From assembly GCA_016929635.1 (NCBI GenBank), contig JAFGIL010000050.1, forward strand, positions 22,067 through 86,066: DNA of 64,000 nucleotides. Direction: 5' to 3'. The notes under the pieces were generated by a model. It worked only from the letters and a program-made list of their open reading frames with translations, did no database searches and was not told the origin of the DNA. Made by a program: the position numbers and the translations under genes. Shown piece after piece: positions 15,459 to 50,301 of this stretch; the first letter of the stretch is position 1, and the number at the start of each line of letters is the position of its first letter. The DNA comes from Endomicrobiales bacterium. GTDB taxonomy: Bacteria > Elusimicrobiota > Endomicrobiia > Endomicrobiales > JAFGIL01.

Positions 15459-16154
15459 ATGCCTAGAACAGCAAGAGTAACAGTTGAAGGGTATCCTTAT
15501 CACATAATGCAGAGGGGGAACTACGGGCAGGATATTTTTAAAACTGACCAGGACAGGCATCAGTACCTTGCCTGGATAATCGAATACAGTTTAAAATACC
15601 ACTTACAAATACTCGCCTTTTGTTTGATGAATAATCATGTTCACTTCACAGCAATACCGCAAAAAAAAGACTCTCTTTCAAAGACATTTAACATGGCACA
15701 TATGAGATACTCCCAGTATGTAAACAATAAAAATAAGACAATGGGGCATTTGTGGCAGGGGCGTTTTTATTCATGTATGCTTGATAAGAAGCATCTATTG
15801 GCAGCGTCAAGATATGTAGAGAGAAATCCTGTAAGAGCGGGTTTGGCGAAAAGGCCGTGGGAATGGGAATGGTCCAGTGCTAATGTTCACATCCATGAAA
15901 TCAGCGATAAAAATAGTCGGTTTTTGAAACTTTTTGAATATGTTGATTTAACCCCTCAGCAGTGGAAAGGCTATATAAGTGAAAACGAAGATGACTTCTT
16001 TGTCGAACAGATAGAGAGGAATACAATTTCAGGCAGGCCCGTCGGCGACGCTGATTTCATAAAAAAGTTAAAGGATAAATTTGGAATAAAAATTGAGGAG
16101 CCTGTCAGGGGCAGGCCGAAAAAGACAAGAAAAACAGGTACCGCGCCTATTTAA
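15459..16154 (+). CDS. IS200/REP-associated (RayT-type) Y1 HUH transposase
   Basis: YPYHIMQRGNYGQDIF, HUH motif LMNNHVHF, WQGRFYSCMLD, and catalytic-Tyr region SRYVERNPVRAGL. Confidence 0.8.
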   Translation: MPRTARVTVEGYPYHIMQRGNYGQDIFKTDQDRHQYLAWIIEYSLKYHLQILAFCLMNNHVHFTAIPQKKDSLSKTFNMAHMRYSQYVNNKNKTMGHLWQGRFYSCMLDKKHLLAASRYVERNPVRAGLAKRPWEWEWSSANVHIHEISDKNSRFLKLFEYVDLTPQQWKGYISENEDDFFVEQIERNTISGRPVGDADFIKKLKDKFGIKIEEPVRGRPKKTRKTGTAPI

Positions 16155-28936: not shown

Positions 28937-29119
28937 ACAAGACTGATCCTGCCAGAAGATTTTTATGCTTTATTCCCGAACTTCAGGGAAACGGGAGATT
29001 CTAATCAGGGTATATCTTGCTGTGTTTAAGAACACAAGACAGGTAAAGCTGCCGCCTGAACCCGAAAACTAATTCCGTAAGCAAGGCAGCTGTTATTTGC
29101 TATAATATTAACAGCTAAT

Positions 29120-30493
29120 ATGATTAAAAGGTTTATAATACTATTTTTAATATCGTTATTATTCGGATTACTGAGCTTATATTCAGGATTTAACGTTCAA
29201 CAGGCATCTATCGTCTCCGTATTTCTTATGTCCATCTTAGGTACGCTTTTTTTCTGGCATTTCAGGATTAGCTTTGTTTTTATTGGGGTCGGGCTTTTAT
29301 TCTTAATCCATGCAATCGATATGGAAAGCTTCCTTAAATACTCGTCCCTGGATGTGATACTTTTTCTTGTAGGAATGATGATACTTGTTGCCATGATGAA
29401 GGAAGCGGGTTTTTTCACCTGGCTCATAACAATGATCCTTAGGGTGCAGAACCTTACGGGCCCAAAGTTCCTGTTTATAATAATGGCAGTGTCTTTTCTC
29501 TTGTCCGGAATTACAGGTGAAGTAAGTTCCATAATGATAATAGTCACTGTTATACTTGAGATTACATATTTTCTTGATGTAAATCCCGTACCTCTTATAA
29601 TATCTTCAATCCTTGCTACTAATATCGGTTCAGCTGCTACGGTAATGGGTAATCCCATAGGAATACTGATTGCCATCAGGGGGGACCTTACTTTTGAGGA
29701 TTTTATTACGTATGCAATGCCGATATCTATTGTGGTATTGATTTTTAGCAGTCTTGTTATTTTATTTATTTACAGAAAGTATCTTGCCGAAGTAACGGAA
29801 AAGATAAAGGAAAACGGTAATGAACCGGCATTTAGATATTTGATTTCGGTTCCGGCAGACAGAAAGACAAAAATATCAATCGCTGTTTTTGCCGTTACAG
29901 TACTTTTAATCAGCCTTCACAGGAGGTTCGAGATTCTCCTTAATCTCGATGAAAACGCGCTTTTAATAATGATACCCATTATATCCTCGGGATTCATAAT
30001 GATATACAGGCATGACAAAGCTCAGCAATATATAGAAAAAGAGGTGGAGTGGAACTCACTTTTGTTTTTCATGTTTCTTTTTGCCATGGCAGGGGTTGTG
30101 CAGGCAAGCGGACTGGCTGACGTTTTCATAAAGAAATCAATTTCATTAACTAATAACCACCCAAGGCTGCTTTTGGGAGTAATACTTATTTCAAGCAGTA
30201 TCCTTTCAAGCGTGCTTGATAACGTTGTAGTGGTTGCCTCATATGTACCCATTATTAAGAGCCTTGAGGTATATTATAAGAATCTTGAGTATTTATGGTG
30301 GGCTTTGCTTTTTGGTGCGTGTTACGGGGGAAATATTACCGTAATAGGATCCACGGCTAACATAATTGCACTTGGGCTTTTGGAAAAGAGGGCGAATATA
30401 AAGATAGGCTTAAGGGTGTGGCTTAAAGCCGGGATTTTAGTAGGGCTCATCAGTATAGCACTGGCTTATCTTATACTTATTCTAGAGTTTTAA
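29120..30493 (+). CDS. ArsB/NhaD/CitMHS-superfamily ion transporter (about 12 TM)
   Basis: Highly hydrophobic, 457 aa. It has internal duplication-like halves with NIGSAATVMGNPIG and GGNITVIGSTANI hairpin-type motifs. Confidence 0.6.
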   Translation: MIKRFIILFLISLLFGLLSLYSGFNVQQASIVSVFLMSILGTLFFWHFRISFVFIGVGLLFLIHAIDMESFLKYSSLDVILFLVGMMILVAMMKEAGFFTWLITMILRVQNLTGPKFLFIIMAVSFLLSGITGEVSSIMIIVTVILEITYFLDVNPVPLIISSILATNIGSAATVMGNPIGILIAIRGDLTFEDFITYAMPISIVVLIFSSLVILFIYRKYLAEVTEKIKENGNEPAFRYLISVPADRKTKISIAVFAVTVLLISLHRRFEILLNLDENALLIMIPIISSGFIMIYRHDKAQQYIEKEVEWNSLLFFMFLFAMAGVVQASGLADVFIKKSISLTNNHPRLLLGVILISSSILSSVLDNVVVVASYVPIIKSLEVYYKNLEYLWWALLFGACYGGNITVIGSTANIIALGLLEKRANIKIGLRVWLKAGILVGLISIALAYLILILEF

Positions 30494-37850: not shown

Positions 37851-37930
37851 GCAGATAATCACTGATGTAAGTCACAGATTTCCACTGATTTTATCTGTGG
37901 TTATCTGCTTAAAATTTGTGATAATCTGTG
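37851..37930. repeat. imperfect inverted repeats upstream of porG
   Basis: GCAGATAATCAC (37851-62) pairs with GTGGTTATCTGC (37897-908). CACAGAT (37873-79) pairs with ATCTGTG (37893-99). A third copy is GTGATAATCTGTG. Confidence 0.5.
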
Positions 37931-37947
37931 TATACAAGGAGATATCA

Positions 37948-38556
37948 ATGGCTAATGACAGAATGATTGAGATACGTTGGCACGGAAGAGGAGGGCAGGG
38001 GGCAAAAACAGCTGCTCTTCTGTTTGCAGAGGCTGTTCTTTCCACAGGTAAGTATGTTCAGGCTTTTCCAGAATACGGCCCGGAGCGAATGGGCGCGCCT
38101 GTGCAGTCGTTTAACAGAATCAGTGAACAGCCGATAACTCTGCACTGCGCGATAACGGAACCCAGCTTTGTGGTTGTACTTGACCCTACACTAATGGATA
38201 GCGTTCCTGTAGTCGAGGGGCTTCGTAAGGACGGGAAGGTAATTGTAAATACGCAGTTTTCTGCAAAAGAAATAGCTGCTAAACTAAAAGTTTCCTCGGA
38301 TAAAGTTTTTGTCGTAAATGCTTCCAAAATTGCAATGGATACCATAGGCCTTAATATTCCCAATACCCCGATGCTTGGTGCATTGGTAAAAGTTATAGGG
38401 GACCTGGATATAGAGGGTGTTTTGAAAGATACACGTCATAAGCTTGAGCAGAAGTTCAGGCATAAACCCCAGGTTATTGACGGTAATCTGGAATCAATCA
38501 AGCGCGCATATAATGAAGTACAAAGCGAACAGGCTGTTGCAGCTAAAAATGCATAA
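37948..38556 (+). CDS. porG: 2-oxoacid (pyruvate):ferredoxin oxidoreductase, gamma subunit
   Basis: Start moved to the ATG at 37948, after AAGGAG. IRWHGRGGQGAKTAA..LA.A and PEYGPERMGAP are gamma-subunit hallmarks. Confidence 0.85.
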   Translation: MANDRMIEIRWHGRGGQGAKTAALLFAEAVLSTGKYVQAFPEYGPERMGAPVQSFNRISEQPITLHCAITEPSFVVVLDPTLMDSVPVVEGLRKDGKVIVNTQFSAKEIAAKLKVSSDKVFVVNASKIAMDTIGLNIPNTPMLGALVKVIGDLDIEGVLKDTRHKLEQKFRHKPQVIDGNLESIKRAYNEVQSEQAVAAKNA

Positions 38557-38571
38557 TTACACATGTTTTTT

Positions 38572-38657
38572 GTAGTGTAGGGGCTTGTCCCCGTAAAATA
38601 GATAGTTTATTATGTTAAAGTATAATATTTTTTACGGCCACAAGGGCCTACACTACA
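38572..38657. repeat. inverted REP-like pair in the porG-porD spacer
   Basis: GTAGTGTAGGGGCTTGTCCCCGTAAAA ... TTTTACGGCCACAAGGGCCTACACTAC. Each arm is GTAG plus a small hairpin, and the stem bases differ between arms in a compensatory way (GGGC/CCCC vs GCCC/GGCC). Confidence 0.55.
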
Positions 38658-38689
38658 AAATATTTGAGTTAAAATGGAGGAAAAAGATA

Positions 38690-38983
38690 ATGGTTAAAGA
38701 TCATAAAATGGGCTGGAAAGACCTTCCCGAAGGCGACCGTTTGGAAGCAGGTACTGCGGCAAACTTCAAAACAGGGGATTGGCGCAGTGAAAAACCGGTC
38801 TGGAACAAGGACAAATGCATCCAATGCATGATTTGCTGGATTGATTGTCCTGACAGTGCGATTATAATAAAAGACGGGAAAGTCGCAGGCATAGATTACG
38901 ACCACTGCAAAGGATGCGGTATTTGCGCAAAAGAATGCCCTCCAAAAGTCCGGGCAATTACGATGGAGAAGGAAAAAAAATAA
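38690..38983 (+). CDS. porD: 2-oxoacid:ferredoxin oxidoreductase, delta subunit (2x[4Fe-4S] ferredoxin)
   Basis: Start moved to the ATG at 38690, after GGAGG. Cluster motifs CIQCMICWIDCP and CKGCGICAKECP. Confidence 0.85.
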   Translation: MVKDHKMGWKDLPEGDRLEAGTAANFKTGDWRSEKPVWNKDKCIQCMICWIDCPDSAIIIKDGKVAGIDYDHCKGCGICAKECPPKVRAITMEKEKK

Positions 38984-38987
38984 ATTT

Positions 38988-39065
38988 TAGCGGATAGCGT
39001 TTAGCGTATAGCGGATAGAAAAGCAAAATATCCCCTATACGCTATCCGCTCTACGCTCTACGCTA
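38988..39065. repeat. inverted arrays of 7-nt sub-repeats (porD-porA spacer)
   Basis: TAGCGGA TAGCGTT TAGCGTA TAGCGGA faces TATACGC TATCCGC TCTACGC TCTACGC. Confidence 0.7.
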
Positions 39066-39076
39066 GGGAGAAAGAA

Positions 39077-40276
39077 ATGGTACAAACCACTACTAAAAAC
39101 GGAATAATAGTTGCAAAAACAGGAAATGAGATTATGGCAGAAGCCATGCGCCAGATAGCGCCCGATGTTGTTGCAGCATACCCTATTACGCCTGCAACCG
39201 AGATTGTACAGATATTCTCGCAGTTTGTTGCGGACGGCCTGGTCCCGACGGAGTTCGTGGCTGTTGAAAGCGAGCATTCCGCAATGTCTGCGTGCATTGG
39301 TTCATCAGCTGCAGGTGCGCGCACGATGACAGGGACATCATCACAGGGGCTGGCACTTATGCACGAGATGCTTTATATAGCAGCAGGGCTAAGGCTCCCG
39401 ATAGTTGTTGCTCTGGTGAACAGGGCGCTTTCAAGCCCGATTAACATCCACGGAGACCATTCGGATACGATGGGTTCGCGCGATGCCGGCTGGATTCAGA
39501 TTTATTCGGAGAATTCGCAGGAAGCGTATGATAACCTGATTCAGGCTATCAGGATAGCAGAAAAAGCAAAAATCCCCGCAATGGTCACAACGGACGGTTT
39601 CATAATTAGCCACTGCATGGAAGTGGTTGAGAAGATTCCCGATGAAGACGTTAAGAAATTCATAGGTGAATACAAGCCAGAAAGGCCTCTTCTTGATTAT
39701 AAAAAACCTTTTTCTGTAGGCGCCATTGACCTGCAGGATTACTACTTTGAGCACCGTTATCAGCTTATAGACGCAATGGAGAAAGCAAAACCCATAGTGC
39801 TTGAGGTTGCCGAGGATTTCAAAAAGGAGTTTAACCGGGAATACGGCTTTTATGAAAAGTATAAAATGGACGATGCTGACATAGCTATAGTTGTTATTGG
39901 CTCTGCTGCAGGTACCGCTAAAGTTGCGGTTGATGATATCAGGAAAAAGGGAGTGAAGGCAGGACTTATAAAATTGCGCGTTTTTCGCCCGTTTCCTCAC
40001 AAGGAGCTTGCGCAAGAGCTTTCCAATCTGAAAGCAGTTGCTGTTCTTGACAGGTGCGACTCGAACTCCGGCGCTCCCGCACCTCTTTACCTTGAAGTAA
40101 CGTCCGCACTTTACACTCACTGCAAGAGCGAATGCCCGAAAGTTATTAATTATGTGTACGGCTTGGGCGGAAGGGACATTGACCTTCATCACATAGCATA
40201 TGTTTACGATATGCTCGGGAAAATAAAAACCGGCACACAGATTAAAAAAGTTGTAAACTACGTCAATTTAAGATAA
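39077..40276 (+). CDS. porA: 2-oxoacid:ferredoxin oxidoreductase, alpha subunit
   Basis: GNEIMAEAMRQIAPDVVAAYPITPATEI, ESEHSAMSACIG.S.AGAR..T.TSSQGL.LM.E. Confidence 0.9.
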   Translation: MVQTTTKNGIIVAKTGNEIMAEAMRQIAPDVVAAYPITPATEIVQIFSQFVADGLVPTEFVAVESEHSAMSACIGSSAAGARTMTGTSSQGLALMHEMLYIAAGLRLPIVVALVNRALSSPINIHGDHSDTMGSRDAGWIQIYSENSQEAYDNLIQAIRIAEKAKIPAMVTTDGFIISHCMEVVEKIPDEDVKKFIGEYKPERPLLDYKKPFSVGAIDLQDYYFEHRYQLIDAMEKAKPIVLEVAEDFKKEFNREYGFYEKYKMDDADIAIVVIGSAAGTAKVAVDDIRKKGVKAGLIKLRVFRPFPHKELAQELSNLKAVAVLDRCDSNSGAPAPLYLEVTSALYTHCKSECPKVINYVYGLGGRDIDLHHIAYVYDMLGKIKTGTQIKKVVNYVNLR

Positions 40277-40277
40277 T

Positions 40278-40357
40278 AGCTATCAGATTTCAGCTGTCAG
40301 CGATCAGCCGAAAAATTTTTTGTTTTACTGAAAGCTGAAGACTGAGAGCTGAAAGCT
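40278..40357. repeat. inverted arrays of 7-nt sub-repeats (porA-porB spacer)
   Basis: AGCTATC AGATTTC AGCTGTC AGCGATC faces GAAAGCT GAAGACT GAGAGCT GAAAGCT. Confidence 0.7.
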
Positions 40358-40373
40358 TTTAAGGGAGAGATAA

Positions 40374-41294
40374 ATGGCAAATTTAAAACAGTTATCGCAA
40401 AAAGAAGAACTTTTTACAGGAGGCCACCGCCTCTGCGCAGGGTGCGGGGCAGGTATTGTTGCAAGGCAGACATTGCTTGCCACAGACACACCTGTTGTCG
40501 TGGCAAATGCTACGGGATGCCTGGAAGTTGCATCCACAATATTTCCTTATACTGCATGGAAGGTTCCATGGATACATTCAGCGTTTGAGAACGCAGGGGC
40601 AACATGCAGCGGAGTTGAAGCAGCTTATAAAAGCCTGAAACGCCAGGGCAAGATTAAGGATGAGATAAGGTTCATTGCTTTTGGCGGAGACGGCGGTACA
40701 TACGATATTGGCCTTCAGTCCCTTTCAGGTGCAATGGAACGGCGTCACAGGATGCTTTATATCTGTTATAATAACGAAGCATATATGAACACAGGAATTC
40801 AAAGAAGCGGAGCTACCCCTCGCGGAGCCCATACCACAACCGCTCCTGCGGGAAAAGTCAAGCAGGGAAAAGAGCAGTTCAGGAAGGATTTGACTGCTAT
40901 CATGGTAGCACACAATCTGCCTTTTGCAGCGCAGGCTTCAATCGGATACTGGAACGATTACATCACGAAGGTCCAGAAAGCCCTTAATACTGACGGACCG
41001 ACATTTATTAATGTAATCCAGCCCTGCCGTCTTGGATGGGGCTATAAACCGGAGGATACAATTCAAGTGGGAAAGCTTGCTGTTGAAACGTGCATCTGGC
41101 CCGTTTATGAAGTTGTTAACGGAAAATACAAGATAAATATGAAGCCTAAAGAGAAAAAGCCTGTTACAGAGTTTTTCAAGCTTCAGGCGCGCTTTAAACA
41201 CCTTTTGAAACCGGAAAATAAGGAAATAGTTGACTCTATCCAGGCAGAAGTTGACCGCAAGTGGGAAAATCTGCTAAAATTGGAAACTCTTTGA
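40374..41294 (+). CDS. porB: 2-oxoacid:ferredoxin oxidoreductase, beta subunit (TPP-binding)
   Basis: GHRLCAGCG, GGDGGTYDIG and YICYNNEAYMNTGIQRS are beta-subunit TPP/Fe-S motifs. Confidence 0.9.
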   Translation: MANLKQLSQKEELFTGGHRLCAGCGAGIVARQTLLATDTPVVVANATGCLEVASTIFPYTAWKVPWIHSAFENAGATCSGVEAAYKSLKRQGKIKDEIRFIAFGGDGGTYDIGLQSLSGAMERRHRMLYICYNNEAYMNTGIQRSGATPRGAHTTTAPAGKVKQGKEQFRKDLTAIMVAHNLPFAAQASIGYWNDYITKVQKALNTDGPTFINVIQPCRLGWGYKPEDTIQVGKLAVETCIWPVYEVVNGKYKINMKPKEKKPVTEFFKLQARFKHLLKPENKEIVDSIQAEVDRKWENLLKLETL

Positions 41295-41300
41295 ACTAGT

Positions 41301-41399
41301 TGTAAGTCATAAGCTGTAAGTTATAAGTTTTAAACGATAAGGATTAAGTAAAAAGCGGGTTTGTTTTTTGTCTTATCACTTAAAACTTACCGCTTATCA
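41301..41399. repeat. inverted arrays of 7-nt sub-repeats downstream of porB
   Basis: TGTAAG TCATAAG CTGTAAG TTATAAG (TTTTAAA CGATAAG GATTAAG TAAAAAG) faces CTTATCA CTTAAAA CTTACCG CTTATCA. Confidence 0.7.
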
Positions 41400-41408
41400 C
41401 TGTTGTTA

Positions 41409-41515
41409 TGATTCTGGCGTAGCTCAATGGGCCGCTGTGCGACGAATAAGGAGCACGAGGTTGGCGGCTGGGCCGAGATGTGAGGCCCCAGAAGGAGCTT
41501 GCTCCAACATTGAGC
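41409..41515 (+). ncRNA. candidate structured RNA / tRNA-derived element: 19-nt copy of the tRNA-Asn 5' end followed by a GC-rich four-way-junction fold
   Basis: TGATTCTGGCGTAGCTCAA (41409-27) is identical to 41575-93. The closing helix GCTCAATG (41422-29) / CATTGAGC (41508-15) encloses three hairpins: GCCGC..GCGGC, GGGCC..GGCCC and GGAG-CTTG-CTCC. Confidence 0.4.
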
Positions 41516-41578
41516 CAAAAGCAGAATATAGAAAAATAGGGAAAGTTTAAATATAGTTTAATAGTATCACCGTTTGAT

Positions 41579-41650
41579 TCTGGCGTAGCTCAACGGTGGA
41601 GCATTCGGCTGTTAACCGAAGGGTTGCTGGTTCGAATCCAGCCGCCAGAG
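41579..41650 (+). tRNA. tRNA-Asn (anticodon GTT), CCA not encoded
   Basis: Acceptor TCTGGCG/CGCCAGA, D stem GCTC/GAGC, anticodon stem TTCGG/CCGAA with loop CTGTTAA, T arm GCTGG-TTCGAAT-CCAGC, discriminator G. Confidence 0.88.
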
Positions 41651-41809
41651 TTGATTTTTTTATCGTCGACAGTGAACTTAACCCTCATTGGACGATCGAA
41701 CTTAAACCATTTGCTGATTAATGTCAGCAGGTGGTTTTTTTGTTTGTAATGAAGATATAAAAAGAGTATAATGCTACTATAAAAAGTTATTGCAATATAA
41801 GGTGAATTT

Positions 41810-50248: not shown

Positions 50249-50301
50249 CAATGTCACTCCCCGGGAGCAGCCCAAAGGGATTCTCCCGGGGTGGGACATT
50301 G
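50249..50301. repeat. 19-nt inverted repeat
   Basis: CAATGTCACTCCCCGGGAG, 15 nt, CTCCCGGGGTGGGACATTG. 16 of 19 positions are complementary. Confidence 0.6.

What the first reader, a model, noticed from the sequence alone, without database searches (positions are those of the whole stretch)
37851..41399. Every spacer of the porGDAB operon carries an inverted array, three of them built from 7-nt sub-repeats
- porD/porA spacer: TAGCGGA TAGCGTT TAGCGTA TAGCGGA (38988-39015) faces TATACGC TATCCGC TCTACGC TCTACGC (39036-39063).
- porA/porB spacer: AGCTATC AGATTTC AGCTGTC AGCGATC (40278-40305) faces GAAAGCT GAAGACT GAGAGCT GAAAGCT (40330-40357).
- After porB: TGTAAG TCATAAG CTGTAAG TTATAAG, continuing in heptad register to 41355, faces CTTATCA CTTAAAA CTTACCG CTTATCA (41372-41399).
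- The porG upstream region and the porG/porD spacer carry analogous inverted repeats (CAGATAA/CACAGAT units and TGTAG-TGTAG plus hairpin).

Each spacer uses a different invariant core (TAGCG, AGC..TC, TAAG) but the same design: four heptads, an AT-rich gap of about 15-25 nt, then four inverted heptads. Complementarity between arms is concentrated in the invariant core positions (4-6 of 7 per heptad). The elements could therefore be bulged RNA hairpins that process or stabilise cistron segments, or symmetric protein-binding arrays. I did not see this heptad design in the other intergenic regions of the window.
Basis: seen in the sequence. Interest (0 to 1): 0.62.

Follow-up and report, generated by a model that had tools for sequence, protein, structure and literature searches.

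The report
Empty heptad-repeat hairpin cassettes between por genes
The hairpins between the pyruvate-oxidoreductase genes are real, but they are not special to this operon: they are gene-less copies of a genome-wide selfish-looking cassette whose full form encloses a small "23S rRNA intervening-sequence" gene between two mirror-image runs of a 7-base word.

Summary
All five por spacers hold long imperfect hairpins at the stated coordinates, and three have arms made of four 7-nt units. They are 5 of the only 6 such inverted repeats in the 64-kb window.

The design is not specific to por. In the 2.23-Mb genome, period-7 arrays number 95 against 3 in shuffled sequence, and periods 8-12 give 0-2. 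About 60% of arrays face an inverted partner within 130 nt. All 21 hairpin loci lying outside the ORFs I called sit between co-directional genes, usually filling the gap from stop codon to ribosome-binding site. Nine more lie in frame inside giant secreted-protein genes.

All five strong PF05635 (23S-rRNA-IVS protein, Avd-like) genes of the genome are enclosed by such arms. The por D/A arm matches 24 nt exactly to the arm of an ORF-bearing cassette in a relative. The post-porB hairpin sits where three relatives carry an ORF-bearing cassette. Relatives with por-spacer hairpins have 5-10 PF05635 genes; por-compact relatives mostly have none.

My best reading is ORF-less IVS-type cassettes that are co-transcribed and probably cut by RNase III. 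Cleavage and mobility are inferred. No RNA data exist, and I found no sense-strand G·U bias.

The parts
37851..37930 (+). Nested inverted repeat upstream of porG, built from roughly 8-nt CAGATnAT / CACTGATn units. It is not heptad-built.
   Evidence: the repeat finder D1, I11 and I13. Fold -30.4 kcal/mol, z -2.66. The motif GCAGATAATCACAGAT (<=2 mismatches) occurs 21 times in the genome against 2 in shuffled sequence.
37948..38556 (+). porG (gamma subunit)
   Evidence: Pfam PF01558 POR, E 1e-41
38568..38660 (+). REPIN-like hairpin in the porG/porD spacer. It consists of two inverted copies of TGTAGTGTAGG-GGCTTGTCCCC-GTAAAA, and each copy has its own small internal palindrome. It is not heptad-built.
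   Evidence: 27 of 31 arm positions complementary. Fold -39.6 kcal/mol, z -4.71. 33 matches (28 nt, <=6 mismatches) to its 5' arm in the genome against 0 in shuffled sequence. No Y1 transposase gene of the assembly is flanked by this sequence.
38690..38983 (+). porD (delta, 2x[4Fe-4S])
   Evidence: Pfam Fer4 families
38988..39065 (+). ORF-less heptad-arm hairpin of the TAGCGnn word family, with 4+4 units and a 16-nt loop. It starts 4 nt after the porD stop codon and ends directly before the GGGAG ribosome-binding site of porA.
   Evidence: I2, 81%; z -4.0. There are 12 arrays of this word in G000, including the arms around the PF05635 gene at C59:18859-19167. A 24-nt exact match links 38988-39011 to the 5' arm of an ORF-bearing cassette in G002 (L120:190-213). 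G007 has the same word in its por D/A and A/B spacers.
39077..40276 (+). porA (alpha)
   Evidence: Pfam POR_N and PFOR_II
40278..40357 (+). ORF-less heptad-arm hairpin with AGCTnTC / GAnAGCT words, 4+4 units and a loop of about 25 nt. It starts 1 nt after the porA stop codon. The porB ribosome-binding site lies 5 nt after the 3' arm.
   Evidence: I9, I10; z -2.7. Arrays with related words occur at C31:2641, C55:9305, C59:45879, C66:52203 and C70:3105. No ORF-bearing copy of this word was seen in G000.
40374..41294 (+). porB (beta, TPP-binding)
   Evidence: Pfam TPP_enzyme_C
41298..41401 (+). ORF-less heptad-arm hairpin after porB, with units AGTTGTA AGTCATA AGCTGTA AGTTATA facing CTTATCA CTTAAAA CTTACCG CTTATCA. 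It is the positional counterpart of an ORF-bearing PF05635 cassette in G001, G002 and G007.
   Evidence: I3, 83%; z -3.4. The relatives carry [AGTnATG arms]-PF05635 ORF-[inverted arms] directly before the same tRNA-Asn. The outer arm ends and the tRNA flank align across the four genomes.
41578..41651 (+). tRNA-Asn(GUU). It anchors the orthology of the post-porB element.
   Evidence: ARAGORN and Rfam, 70 bits

Best explanation
The three heptad hairpins (porD/porA, porA/porB and after porB) are ORF-less copies of an IVS-type cassette. The full form of that cassette is [4-5 tandem 7-nt words] - small PF05635 four-helix-bundle gene - [the same words inverted]. Such cassettes sit at junctions between co-directional genes, so that the upstream stop codon and the downstream ribosome-binding site stay intact. 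They persist vertically, they also turn up at new loci, and they lose the ORF, which leaves a solo hairpin of about 80-100 nt. The other two por spacers hold members of two different dispersed hairpin-repeat families.

Because none of the hairpins is followed by a U-tract, they should be transcribed as part of the por mRNA and fold into 23-31-bp imperfect stems. By analogy with ORF-bearing 23S rRNA intervening sequences, the stems are probably cut by RNase III, which would split the polycistron at each junction. I judge the net effect on por expression to be tolerated rather than designed.

Shown: the anatomy, the statistics, the genome-wide class, the link to PF05635, the positional orthology, and the presence/absence pattern among relatives. 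Inferred: transcription through the elements, RNase III cleavage, the direction of ORF loss, and any mobility mechanism.
For: - **Period specificity.** There are 95 arrays of period 7 against 3 in shuffled sequence, and 0-2 for periods 8-12.
- **Inverted partners.** 57-62 of the 95 arrays have an inverted partner within 130 nt, against 2 for reverse-only and 6-7 for complement-only controls.
- **Shared design.** 35 hairpin loci have a median arm of 25 nt, a median loop of 26 nt, 83% complementarity, and loops that are 72% A+T.
- **Gene context.** All 21 hairpin loci outside called ORFs lie between co-directional genes, typically 0-10 nt after a stop codon and 2-18 nt before the next start. The flanking pairs are functional partners, such as P-II|AmtB, AHAS large|small subunit, V-ATPase B|D and UppS|CdsA.
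- **Link to PF05635 in G000.** All five strong PF05635 genes are flanked by inverted heptad arms, each with a different word.
- **Link to PF05635 in relatives.** In relatives of the same order, 19 of 20 PF05635 genes have arms above shuffled controls. In a phylum-wide sample the figure is 23 of 28. Period 7 predominates, with some period 8.
- **Arm identity.** The por D/A arm matches 24 nt exactly to the arm of an ORF-bearing cassette in G002.
- **Positional orthology.** The post-porB hairpin occupies the site of ORF-bearing cassettes in G001, G002 and G007.
- **ORF decay.** Three of the five G000 PF05635 genes carry an in-frame stop.
- **Co-occurrence.** Genomes with heptad hairpins or arrays at por (G000, G001, G002, G005, G007) have 5-10 PF05635 genes. 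Of the 16 por-compact genomes, 12 have none, three have one and one has four.
- **Read-through.** No terminator-type U-tracts follow the hairpins.
- **Literature.** RNase III excises ORF-bearing IVS stems from 23S rRNA, and the IVS ORF undergoes reductive evolution (PMC4990558).
Against: - No transcript data cover this organism. Metatranscriptomes of the same study hold nothing of por, and no RNA run exists for a relative's cassette.
- No RNase III gene was found in this 90%-complete assembly, although 11 of 12 relatives have one.
- Stem mismatches show no excess of G:T over A:C on the sense strand (28 against 23, p=0.58), and sense and antisense folds are equally stable. Nothing therefore indicates selection on the RNA structure as such.
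- The A/B word family has no ORF-bearing copy in G000, so descent from a cassette is inferred by class, not shown for that element.
- No target-site duplication or transposase was identified, so the mobility mechanism is unknown.
- The correlation between PF05635 counts and por hairpins is confounded by phylogeny and genome reduction, because most por-compact genomes belong to one family.
Confidence: 0.62

Rival explanations
1. The hairpins are selected intercistronic RNA elements of the por operon. They would act as processing sites or 3'/5' stabilisers that set the relative amounts of the four subunit mRNAs, as REP hairpins do in the E. coli malEFG operon.
For: Every por spacer is occupied. 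Hairpins recur in the same por spacers in five lineages while the word differs. The stems end just before free ribosome-binding sites. They are not terminators.
Against: The same elements lie in many unrelated operons and in frame inside coding sequence. Sixteen of 21 examined relatives run por with 20-50-nt spacers and no hairpin. Stem mismatches show no sense-strand G.U bias. The arms are shared with ORF-bearing cassettes located elsewhere.
Confidence: 0.12
2. The heptad arrays are binding sites, as RNA or as DNA, for the ring-forming PF05635 proteins, with each protein lineage reading its own 7-nt word. On this reading the ORF-less por hairpins are trans-acting targets of such proteins encoded elsewhere. 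For example, the TAGCG-armed gene at C59 would act on the por D/A spacer.
For: Protein identity and arm similarity co-vary (Spearman 0.26; Mantel test, 1 of 2000 permutations reach the observed value). Pairs of proteins that are 61-78% identical, from different taxonomic families, keep the same word. This holds even for pairs at different loci, such as G000 ribBA|ribH against G002 next to a purQ-like gene (my reading of the translated flanks). Arms hold 4-5 units, and S23p is a homopentamer (PMC4990558, citing Lin 2006).
Against: Inheritance of the cassette as a unit explains the same correlation. Three of the five PF05635 genes in G000, including the TAGCG-armed one, carry in-frame stops. Several abundant word families (CTCGATn, CCAAATn, TCAGCnn) have no cognate gene in the assembly. 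No binding has ever been reported in the papers I found.
Confidence: 0.16
3. The arrays are plain by-products of replication slippage on 7-nt units, that is, heptameric simple-sequence repeats. They would have no mobility and no link to any gene, and the inverted arrangement would arise locally by template switching.
For: Heptamer repeats are the most over-represented long simple-sequence repeats in many prokaryotes, and this has been ascribed to polymerase slippage (Mrazek 2007, as summarised in PMC4679880 and PMC4692102). Unit numbers and variable positions differ between copies.
Against: About 60% of arrays are paired in inverted orientation, against 2-7% in controls. The same words recur at 8 or more dispersed loci and in other genomes, with a 24-nt exact match. 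All five strong PF05635 genes are enclosed by such arms. Placement is strongly biased toward co-directional gene junctions.
Confidence: 0.05

Closest known systems
ORF-bearing intervening sequences (IVS) of 23S rRNA (Leptospira, Coxiella burnetii, Xanthomonas, Brucella; PMC4990558)
   Same: [quoted passage not shown] The cargo, when present, is an S23p/PF05635 four-helix-bundle ORF. Distribution among relatives is sporadic. The ORF decays: in Coxiella it shows reductive evolution, and here three of five genes carry stops. Insertion sites are ones where an interrupted transcript is tolerated.
   Different: The elements here sit in mRNA operon junctions, before a tRNA, and even in frame inside protein genes, not in rRNA helices. 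Their stems are built from tandem 7-nt words. Most copies lack the ORF. RNase III excision is not shown.
Inverted pairs of GGGAATC heptamer arrays in Xanthomonas (Rehm et al. 2015, PMC4692102) and heptameric long simple-sequence repeats in general (Mrazek 2007; cyanobacterial STRR; TAACTGA repeats of Beggiatoaceae, PMC4679880)
   Same: They are tandem 7-nt units in intergenic DNA. In Xanthomonas 70-75 loci are convergent inverted pairs able to form stem-loops. The repeat type is kept while length and sequence vary between relatives.
   Different: Those genomes are dominated by one word, whereas this genome has at least 10 word families. No link to a PF05635 gene, to ORF-less versus ORF-bearing forms, or to in-frame coding copies is described in those papers.
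REP/REPIN elements with RAYT transposases (PMC3116915)
   Same: They are short dispersed extragenic hairpins between co-directional genes. The porG/porD spacer hairpin has the REPIN layout of two inverted imperfect palindromes. G000 has seven Y1_Tnp genes, and two of them are flanked by other palindrome families.
   Different: The heptad hairpins have no palindromic REP unit and many unrelated words, and their gene-bearing form carries PF05635 rather than a Y1 transposase. No Y1 gene in the assembly is flanked by the TGTAGTGTAGG sequence.
Rickettsia palindromic elements (RPE); from memory: Ogata et al. 2000
   Same: They are hairpin-forming repeats that also insert in frame into protein-coding genes without destroying them. 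This is seen here in eight giant-protein paralogs.
   Different: RPEs are copies of a 100-150-nt consensus. Here only the architecture and a 7-nt word are shared.

Membership tests
Heptameric tandem repeats / inverted heptamer pairs (Mrazek 2007; Rehm 2015) | At least 3-4 tandem units of 7 nt, with period 7 in excess over other periods | tested here: met
   95 arrays of period 7 against 3 in shuffled sequence; periods 8-12 give 0-2
Heptameric tandem repeats / inverted heptamer pairs (Mrazek 2007; Rehm 2015) | Two arrays in convergent (inverted) orientation close together | tested here: met
   57-62 of 95 arrays have an inverted partner, against 2-7 in controls
Heptameric tandem repeats / inverted heptamer pairs (Mrazek 2007; Rehm 2015) | One dominant word per genome (GGGAATC, TAACTGA) | tested here: not met
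   At least 10 word families are present in G000
IVS-type element (23S rRNA intervening sequence) | Bordered by complementary sequences that form a long stem | tested here: met
   Arms of 23-31 nt, 81-83% complementary; fold z -2.7 to -4.0
IVS-type element (23S rRNA intervening sequence) | Carries an S23p / PF05635 ORF | tested here: not met
   The por copies have loops of 16-49 nt and no ORF. Sister elements with the same arm design do carry the ORF.
IVS-type element (23S rRNA intervening sequence) | Inserted in an rRNA helix | tested here: not met
   The elements lie in mRNA spacers between por genes and before tRNA-Asn
IVS-type element (23S rRNA intervening sequence) | Excised from the transcript by RNase III without re-ligation | not testable with these tools
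   No RNA data are available. rnc was not found in this assembly but is present in 11 of 12 relatives.
REP / REPIN-RAYT | Unit is an imperfect palindrome; a RAYT gene is flanked by the same REP | tested here: not met
   Heptad arms are not palindromic units. Only the CCCGTTCCCGGAACGGG and GGGACAGACAC families flank Y1_Tnp genes.
MITE | Terminal inverted repeats plus a target-site duplication, derived from a transposase-encoding IS | tested here: inconclusive
   Inverted termini are present. No duplication is visible at the por junctions when compared with empty spacers of relatives. The gene-bearing form encodes PF05635, not a known transposase.
Intrinsic terminator | G+C-rich stem followed by a U-tract | tested here: not met
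   None of the spacer hairpins is called as a terminator. A T-run follows only 6 of 70 element ends genome-wide.
Any Rfam family | Covariance-model match at the gathering score | tested here: not met
   Only sub-threshold hits to generic miRNA-precursor hairpins

The most novel reading that the evidence does not exclude
PF05635 four-helix-bundle proteins and prokaryotic heptamer repeats may be two halves of one system. Each ring-forming protein lineage would recognise its own 7-nt word in arrays of 4-5 units, and would help to maintain, move or process the cassette. On this reading the ORF-less hairpins that fill por and many other operon junctions, and that sit in frame inside genes, are trans-dependent satellites of those proteins. 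This would explain both the long-noted excess of heptamer repeats and the function of the IVS protein family.
Probability: 0.2. Interest if true: 0.85.

Novelty: new variant of a known kind. Interest (0 to 1): 0.62.

Why it matters
Heptamer repeats are reported as the most over-represented long simple-sequence repeats in prokaryotes, and their cause is unknown. The 23S-IVS protein family (also Avd-like) is widespread and has no known function. This locus shows the two as parts of one element type, and it gives three concrete handles.

- An essential operon has every junction occupied by hairpin repeats, three of them ORF-less heptad cassettes.
- One site is ORF-less here and ORF-bearing in three relatives.
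- In-frame copies occur at the same two sites of paralogous giant genes.

For annotation, the finding warns that such spacers are not operon-specific regulators. For RNA biology, it predicts RNase III-type fragmentation of ordinary polycistronic mRNAs at these sites.

Tried and rejected
- **RNA evidence.** Two run searches for the window found only metatranscriptomes of the same study, and they hold nothing of por. A search for a cassette of relative G023 found no RNA run.
- **Rfam.** Nothing was found at gathering or E-value thresholds.
- **Terminators and promoters.** Counts are no higher than in shuffled sequence, and none lies at the hairpins.
- **G.U asymmetry test for RNA-level selection.** The result was negative or underpowered.
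- **RNase III gene in G000.** Not found with PF14622, PF00636 or a signature-motif scan. I treat this as probable assembly incompleteness.
- **RAYT link for the porG/porD hairpin family.** None was found.
- **Target-site duplications at por junctions.** None is visible, and relatives are too diverged for a clean comparison of empty and filled sites.
- **Close relatives for covariation analysis.** None is held; the nearest PorA is 78% identical.
- **Elhai et al. 2008.** This paper on small dispersed repeats in Nostoc could not be read.
- **My crude ORF caller.** It over-extends starts, so some 'coding' labels are artefacts. Only the nine copies in the giant genes were verified as truly in frame.

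Full report
**1. The observation**

The four genes are a genuine por operon: gamma (PF01558), delta (2x Fer4), alpha (POR_N, PFOR_II) and beta (TPP_enzyme_C). Their coordinates are 37948-38556, 38690-38983, 39077-40276 and 40374-41294.

The repeat finder gives arms of 31 nt at 81% complementarity (D/A), 23-24 nt at 79-83% (A/B) and 29 nt at 83% (after porB). It also finds 14-nt direct repeats, that is two heptads, inside each arm. As RNA the five spacers fold at -28 to -40 kcal/mol, with z-scores of -2.7 to -4.7 against dinucleotide shuffles.

A scan of my own (arms >=20 nt, >=75% complementary, loop <=60 nt) finds six such inverted repeats in the 64-kb window. Five of them are the por spacers.

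**2. The design is genome-wide**

The window is C75:22067-86066 of a 2.23-Mb, 77-contig, 39% G+C assembly. Its nearest PorA relatives are Endomicrobia-type MAGs, at 74-78% amino-acid identity.

- The same scan gives 218 inverted repeats in the genome, against 48 in locally shuffled sequence.
- Arrays of at least four units with at least 76% self-match number 95 for period 7, against 3 in shuffled sequence. Periods 8-12 give 0-2, and period 6 gives 25 against 12.
- They form 76 loci with at least ten different words: TAGCGnn, CTCGATn, CCAAATn, ACAGnAG, TCAGGAG, TCAGCnn, GTAAGnn, AGAGTAG, GACAAAT and GAGACnA.
- 57-62 of the 95 arrays have an inverted partner within 130 nt. Controls give 2 for a reversed query and 6-7 for a complemented query.
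- Each por word recurs elsewhere. For example, there are 12 TAGCG/CGCTA arrays at eight loci.

The other two por spacers hold different dispersed repeat sequences. The G/D 5' arm TGTAGTGTAGG..CCGTAAAA has 33 matches against 0 in shuffled sequence. The GCAGATAATCACAGAT motif upstream of porG has 21 matches against 2.

In the source metagenome, contig depth jumps from about 12 to 65-270 exactly at the spacers. This agrees with multi-copy sequence.

**3. Where the elements sit**

Among loci outside the ORFs I called, all 21 hairpins and 18 of 21 single arrays lie between co-directional genes. The background for spacers of at least 60 nt is 469 co-directional against 124 other.

The elements usually begin 0-10 nt after a stop codon and end 2-18 nt before the next start. 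In por, the downstream ribosome-binding site lies free just beyond the 3' arm. The flanking pairs are functional partners: P-II|AmtB, acetolactate synthase large|small subunit, V-ATPase B|D and UppS|CdsA. One hairpin follows GTP cyclohydrolase I.

Nine further copies lie in frame inside an eight-member paralog family of giant secreted proteins. They occupy two fixed variable sites. Different paralogs carry different word families at the same site, and one paralog lacks the insert at each site.

**4. The link to a gene**

Three pairs of arrays lie about 350 nt apart and enclose a 120-aa ORF. The ORF of one pair (C71) scanned against Pfam matches PF05635 (23S rRNA intervening-sequence protein, E 2e-42) with a weaker bAvd-like match, and the PF05635 scan of the genome recovers all three.

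The genome has five strong PF05635 genes. All five are flanked by inverted heptad arms, each with a different word: GTACAAA, CGTATCT, TAGCGTA, GAGACnA and GTCCTAA. Three of the five carry an in-frame stop.

The pattern holds in relatives.

- In relatives of the same order, 19 of 20 PF05635 genes have flanking arms above every shuffled control. Thirteen pass my stricter cut of at least 19 of 24 complementary positions with period 7.
- In a phylum-wide sample, 23 of 28 genes have such arms. Of the 22 with at least 19 of 24 complementary positions, 13 are period 7, 5 are period 8 and 1 is period 9.
- Protein identity and arm similarity co-vary (Mantel test, 1 of 2000 permutations).
- One orthologous pair (G001 and G004, apparently between purN- and purB-like genes by my reading of the translated flanks) keeps the same word at 78% protein identity.
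- Another pair keeps the TAGCG word at different loci: G000 between ribBA and ribH by my reading of the flanking ORFs, and G002 next to a purQ-like gene by the same kind of reading. These proteins are 71% identical.

**5. The por hairpins are ORF-less members of this class**

- The por D/A 5' arm (38988-39011) matches 24 nt exactly to the 5' arm of the ORF-bearing TAGCG cassette of G002. The por loop AAAAGCAAAA resembles that cassette's leader AAAGCAAAAAAATG.
- Downstream of porB, the genomes G001, G002 and G007 carry [AGTnATG x4]-PF05635 ORF-[inverted arms] directly before tRNA-Asn.
- G000 has at the same place an ORF-less hairpin whose units (AGTTGTA, AGTTATA) differ at one position from those of G001 (AGTTGTG, AGTTATG). 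The outer arm ends and the tRNA flank align across the four genomes.
- Heptad hairpins occupy the por D/A and A/B spacers in G001 (TGAGTnn), G005 (AGAGnAT / CCTCTAA), G007 (TAGCGnn) and L003 (AGTGAAR). Sixteen other relatives have compact spacers without hairpins.
- All five genomes with hairpins or arrays at por have 5-10 PF05635 genes. Of the 16 por-compact genomes, 12 have none, three have one and one has four. Every value in the first group exceeds every value in the second. Phylogeny confounds this comparison.

**6. Mechanism**

Three things are shown. The elements are inverted DNA repeats that would fold in either strand's transcript. They are not terminators. They respect stop codons, ribosome-binding sites and reading frames.

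The rest is inferred from the closest characterised relatives, the ORF-bearing IVS of 23S rRNA. Those are bordered by complementary sequences and excised by RNase III, and their ORF decays (PMC4990558). I therefore expect co-transcription with por and cleavage within the stems. I regard the elements as tolerated selfish cassettes, not as a por-specific regulatory design.

Several points count against strong claims.

- No RNA data exist.
- rnc was not found in this 90%-complete assembly, though it is present in 11 of 12 relatives.
- Stem mismatches show no sense-strand G.U excess (28 against 23), and neither strand folds better than the other.
- No transposase or target-site duplication explains mobility. 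The genome has one reverse transcriptase and seven Y1 transposase genes, none of them linked to heptad arms.

**7. Comparison with the literature and with this scan**

Three things are already described: the over-representation of heptamer repeats (Mrazek 2007, via PMC4679880 and PMC4692102); inverted GGGAATC pairs in Xanthomonas (PMC4692102); and ORF-bearing rRNA IVS (PMC4990558).

My literature searches found no paper tying heptad arrays to PF05635 cassettes. Earlier agents of this scan reached the same link in other genomes. I treated their notes as leads and re-derived the link here from this genome and its relatives.

This locus adds four things:

- an essential operon with every junction occupied by hairpin repeats, three of them ORF-less heptad cassettes;
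- a site that is ORF-less here and ORF-bearing in three relatives;
- in-frame coding copies at fixed sites of paralogs;
- a test of co-variation between arm word and protein lineage.

Noticed in passing
outside the window: C63:30285-52421(-), C16:70311-92660(-), C54, C19, C2, C25, C50, C58: This is an eight-member paralog family of giant secreted proteins, up to about 7,400 aa, with no Pfam hit in the first 600 aa of the one paralog scanned (C63). The N-terminal domain has two fixed variable sites that are encoded by heptad hairpins of different word families in different paralogs. The insert is absent from one paralog at each site. A third site holds a different hairpin repeat (AAATGGGGACTGTCCC).
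   Followed up: partly
window 41403-41540: The stretch between the post-porB hairpin and tRNA-Asn starts with a copy of the first 20 nt of that tRNA (GATTCTGGCGTAGCTCAATGG). It then runs into a G+C-rich segment that is also present in G001 (L093:5210-5320), with what look like compensatory stem changes. There is no Rfam match. In G001 and G002 the tRNA-Asn itself appears to be interrupted after the anticodon loop by a long insert.
   Followed up: no
window 15483-15827 (ORF 15459-16154, +): This is one of seven Y1_Tnp (IS200/RAYT-type) genes in the genome. Elsewhere, two of them (C47:9159-9431 and C22:47071-47400) are flanked on both sides by dispersed palindrome families (CCCGTTCCCGGAACGGG and GGGACAGACAC), as in REP-RAYT systems.
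   Followed up: partly
window 50249-50301: This is the only long inverted repeat of the window outside por: CAATGTCACTCCCCGGGAGCAGCCC / GGGATTCTCCCGGGGTGGGACATTG, with a 3-nt loop. A near-copy lies at C7:17011-17063.
   Followed up: no
window 28956-29098: A c-di-AMP riboswitch (Rfam RF00379, 48.5 bits) lies upstream of the ORF at 29120-30493.
   Followed up: no
whole assembly G000: No RNase III gene was found (PF14622, PF00636 and a signature-motif scan), although 11 of 12 relatives have one. The assembly is 90% complete, so this may be a gap, not a loss.
   Followed up: partly
C59:12525-12659, C32:1948-2045 (outside the window): These are long one-sided ACAGTAG/ACAGCAG arrays of 14-19 units that my scan labelled as single arrays; I did not inspect them further. 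They are much longer than the 4-5-unit cassette arms.
   Followed up: no
contig ends (C4:2-61, C28:30-85, C59:3-62, C63:42-108, C75:96389-96444): The hairpin repeat GTAGGGCGAGGCTTTAGCCTCGC sits at many contig ends. It probably causes assembly breaks.
   Followed up: no
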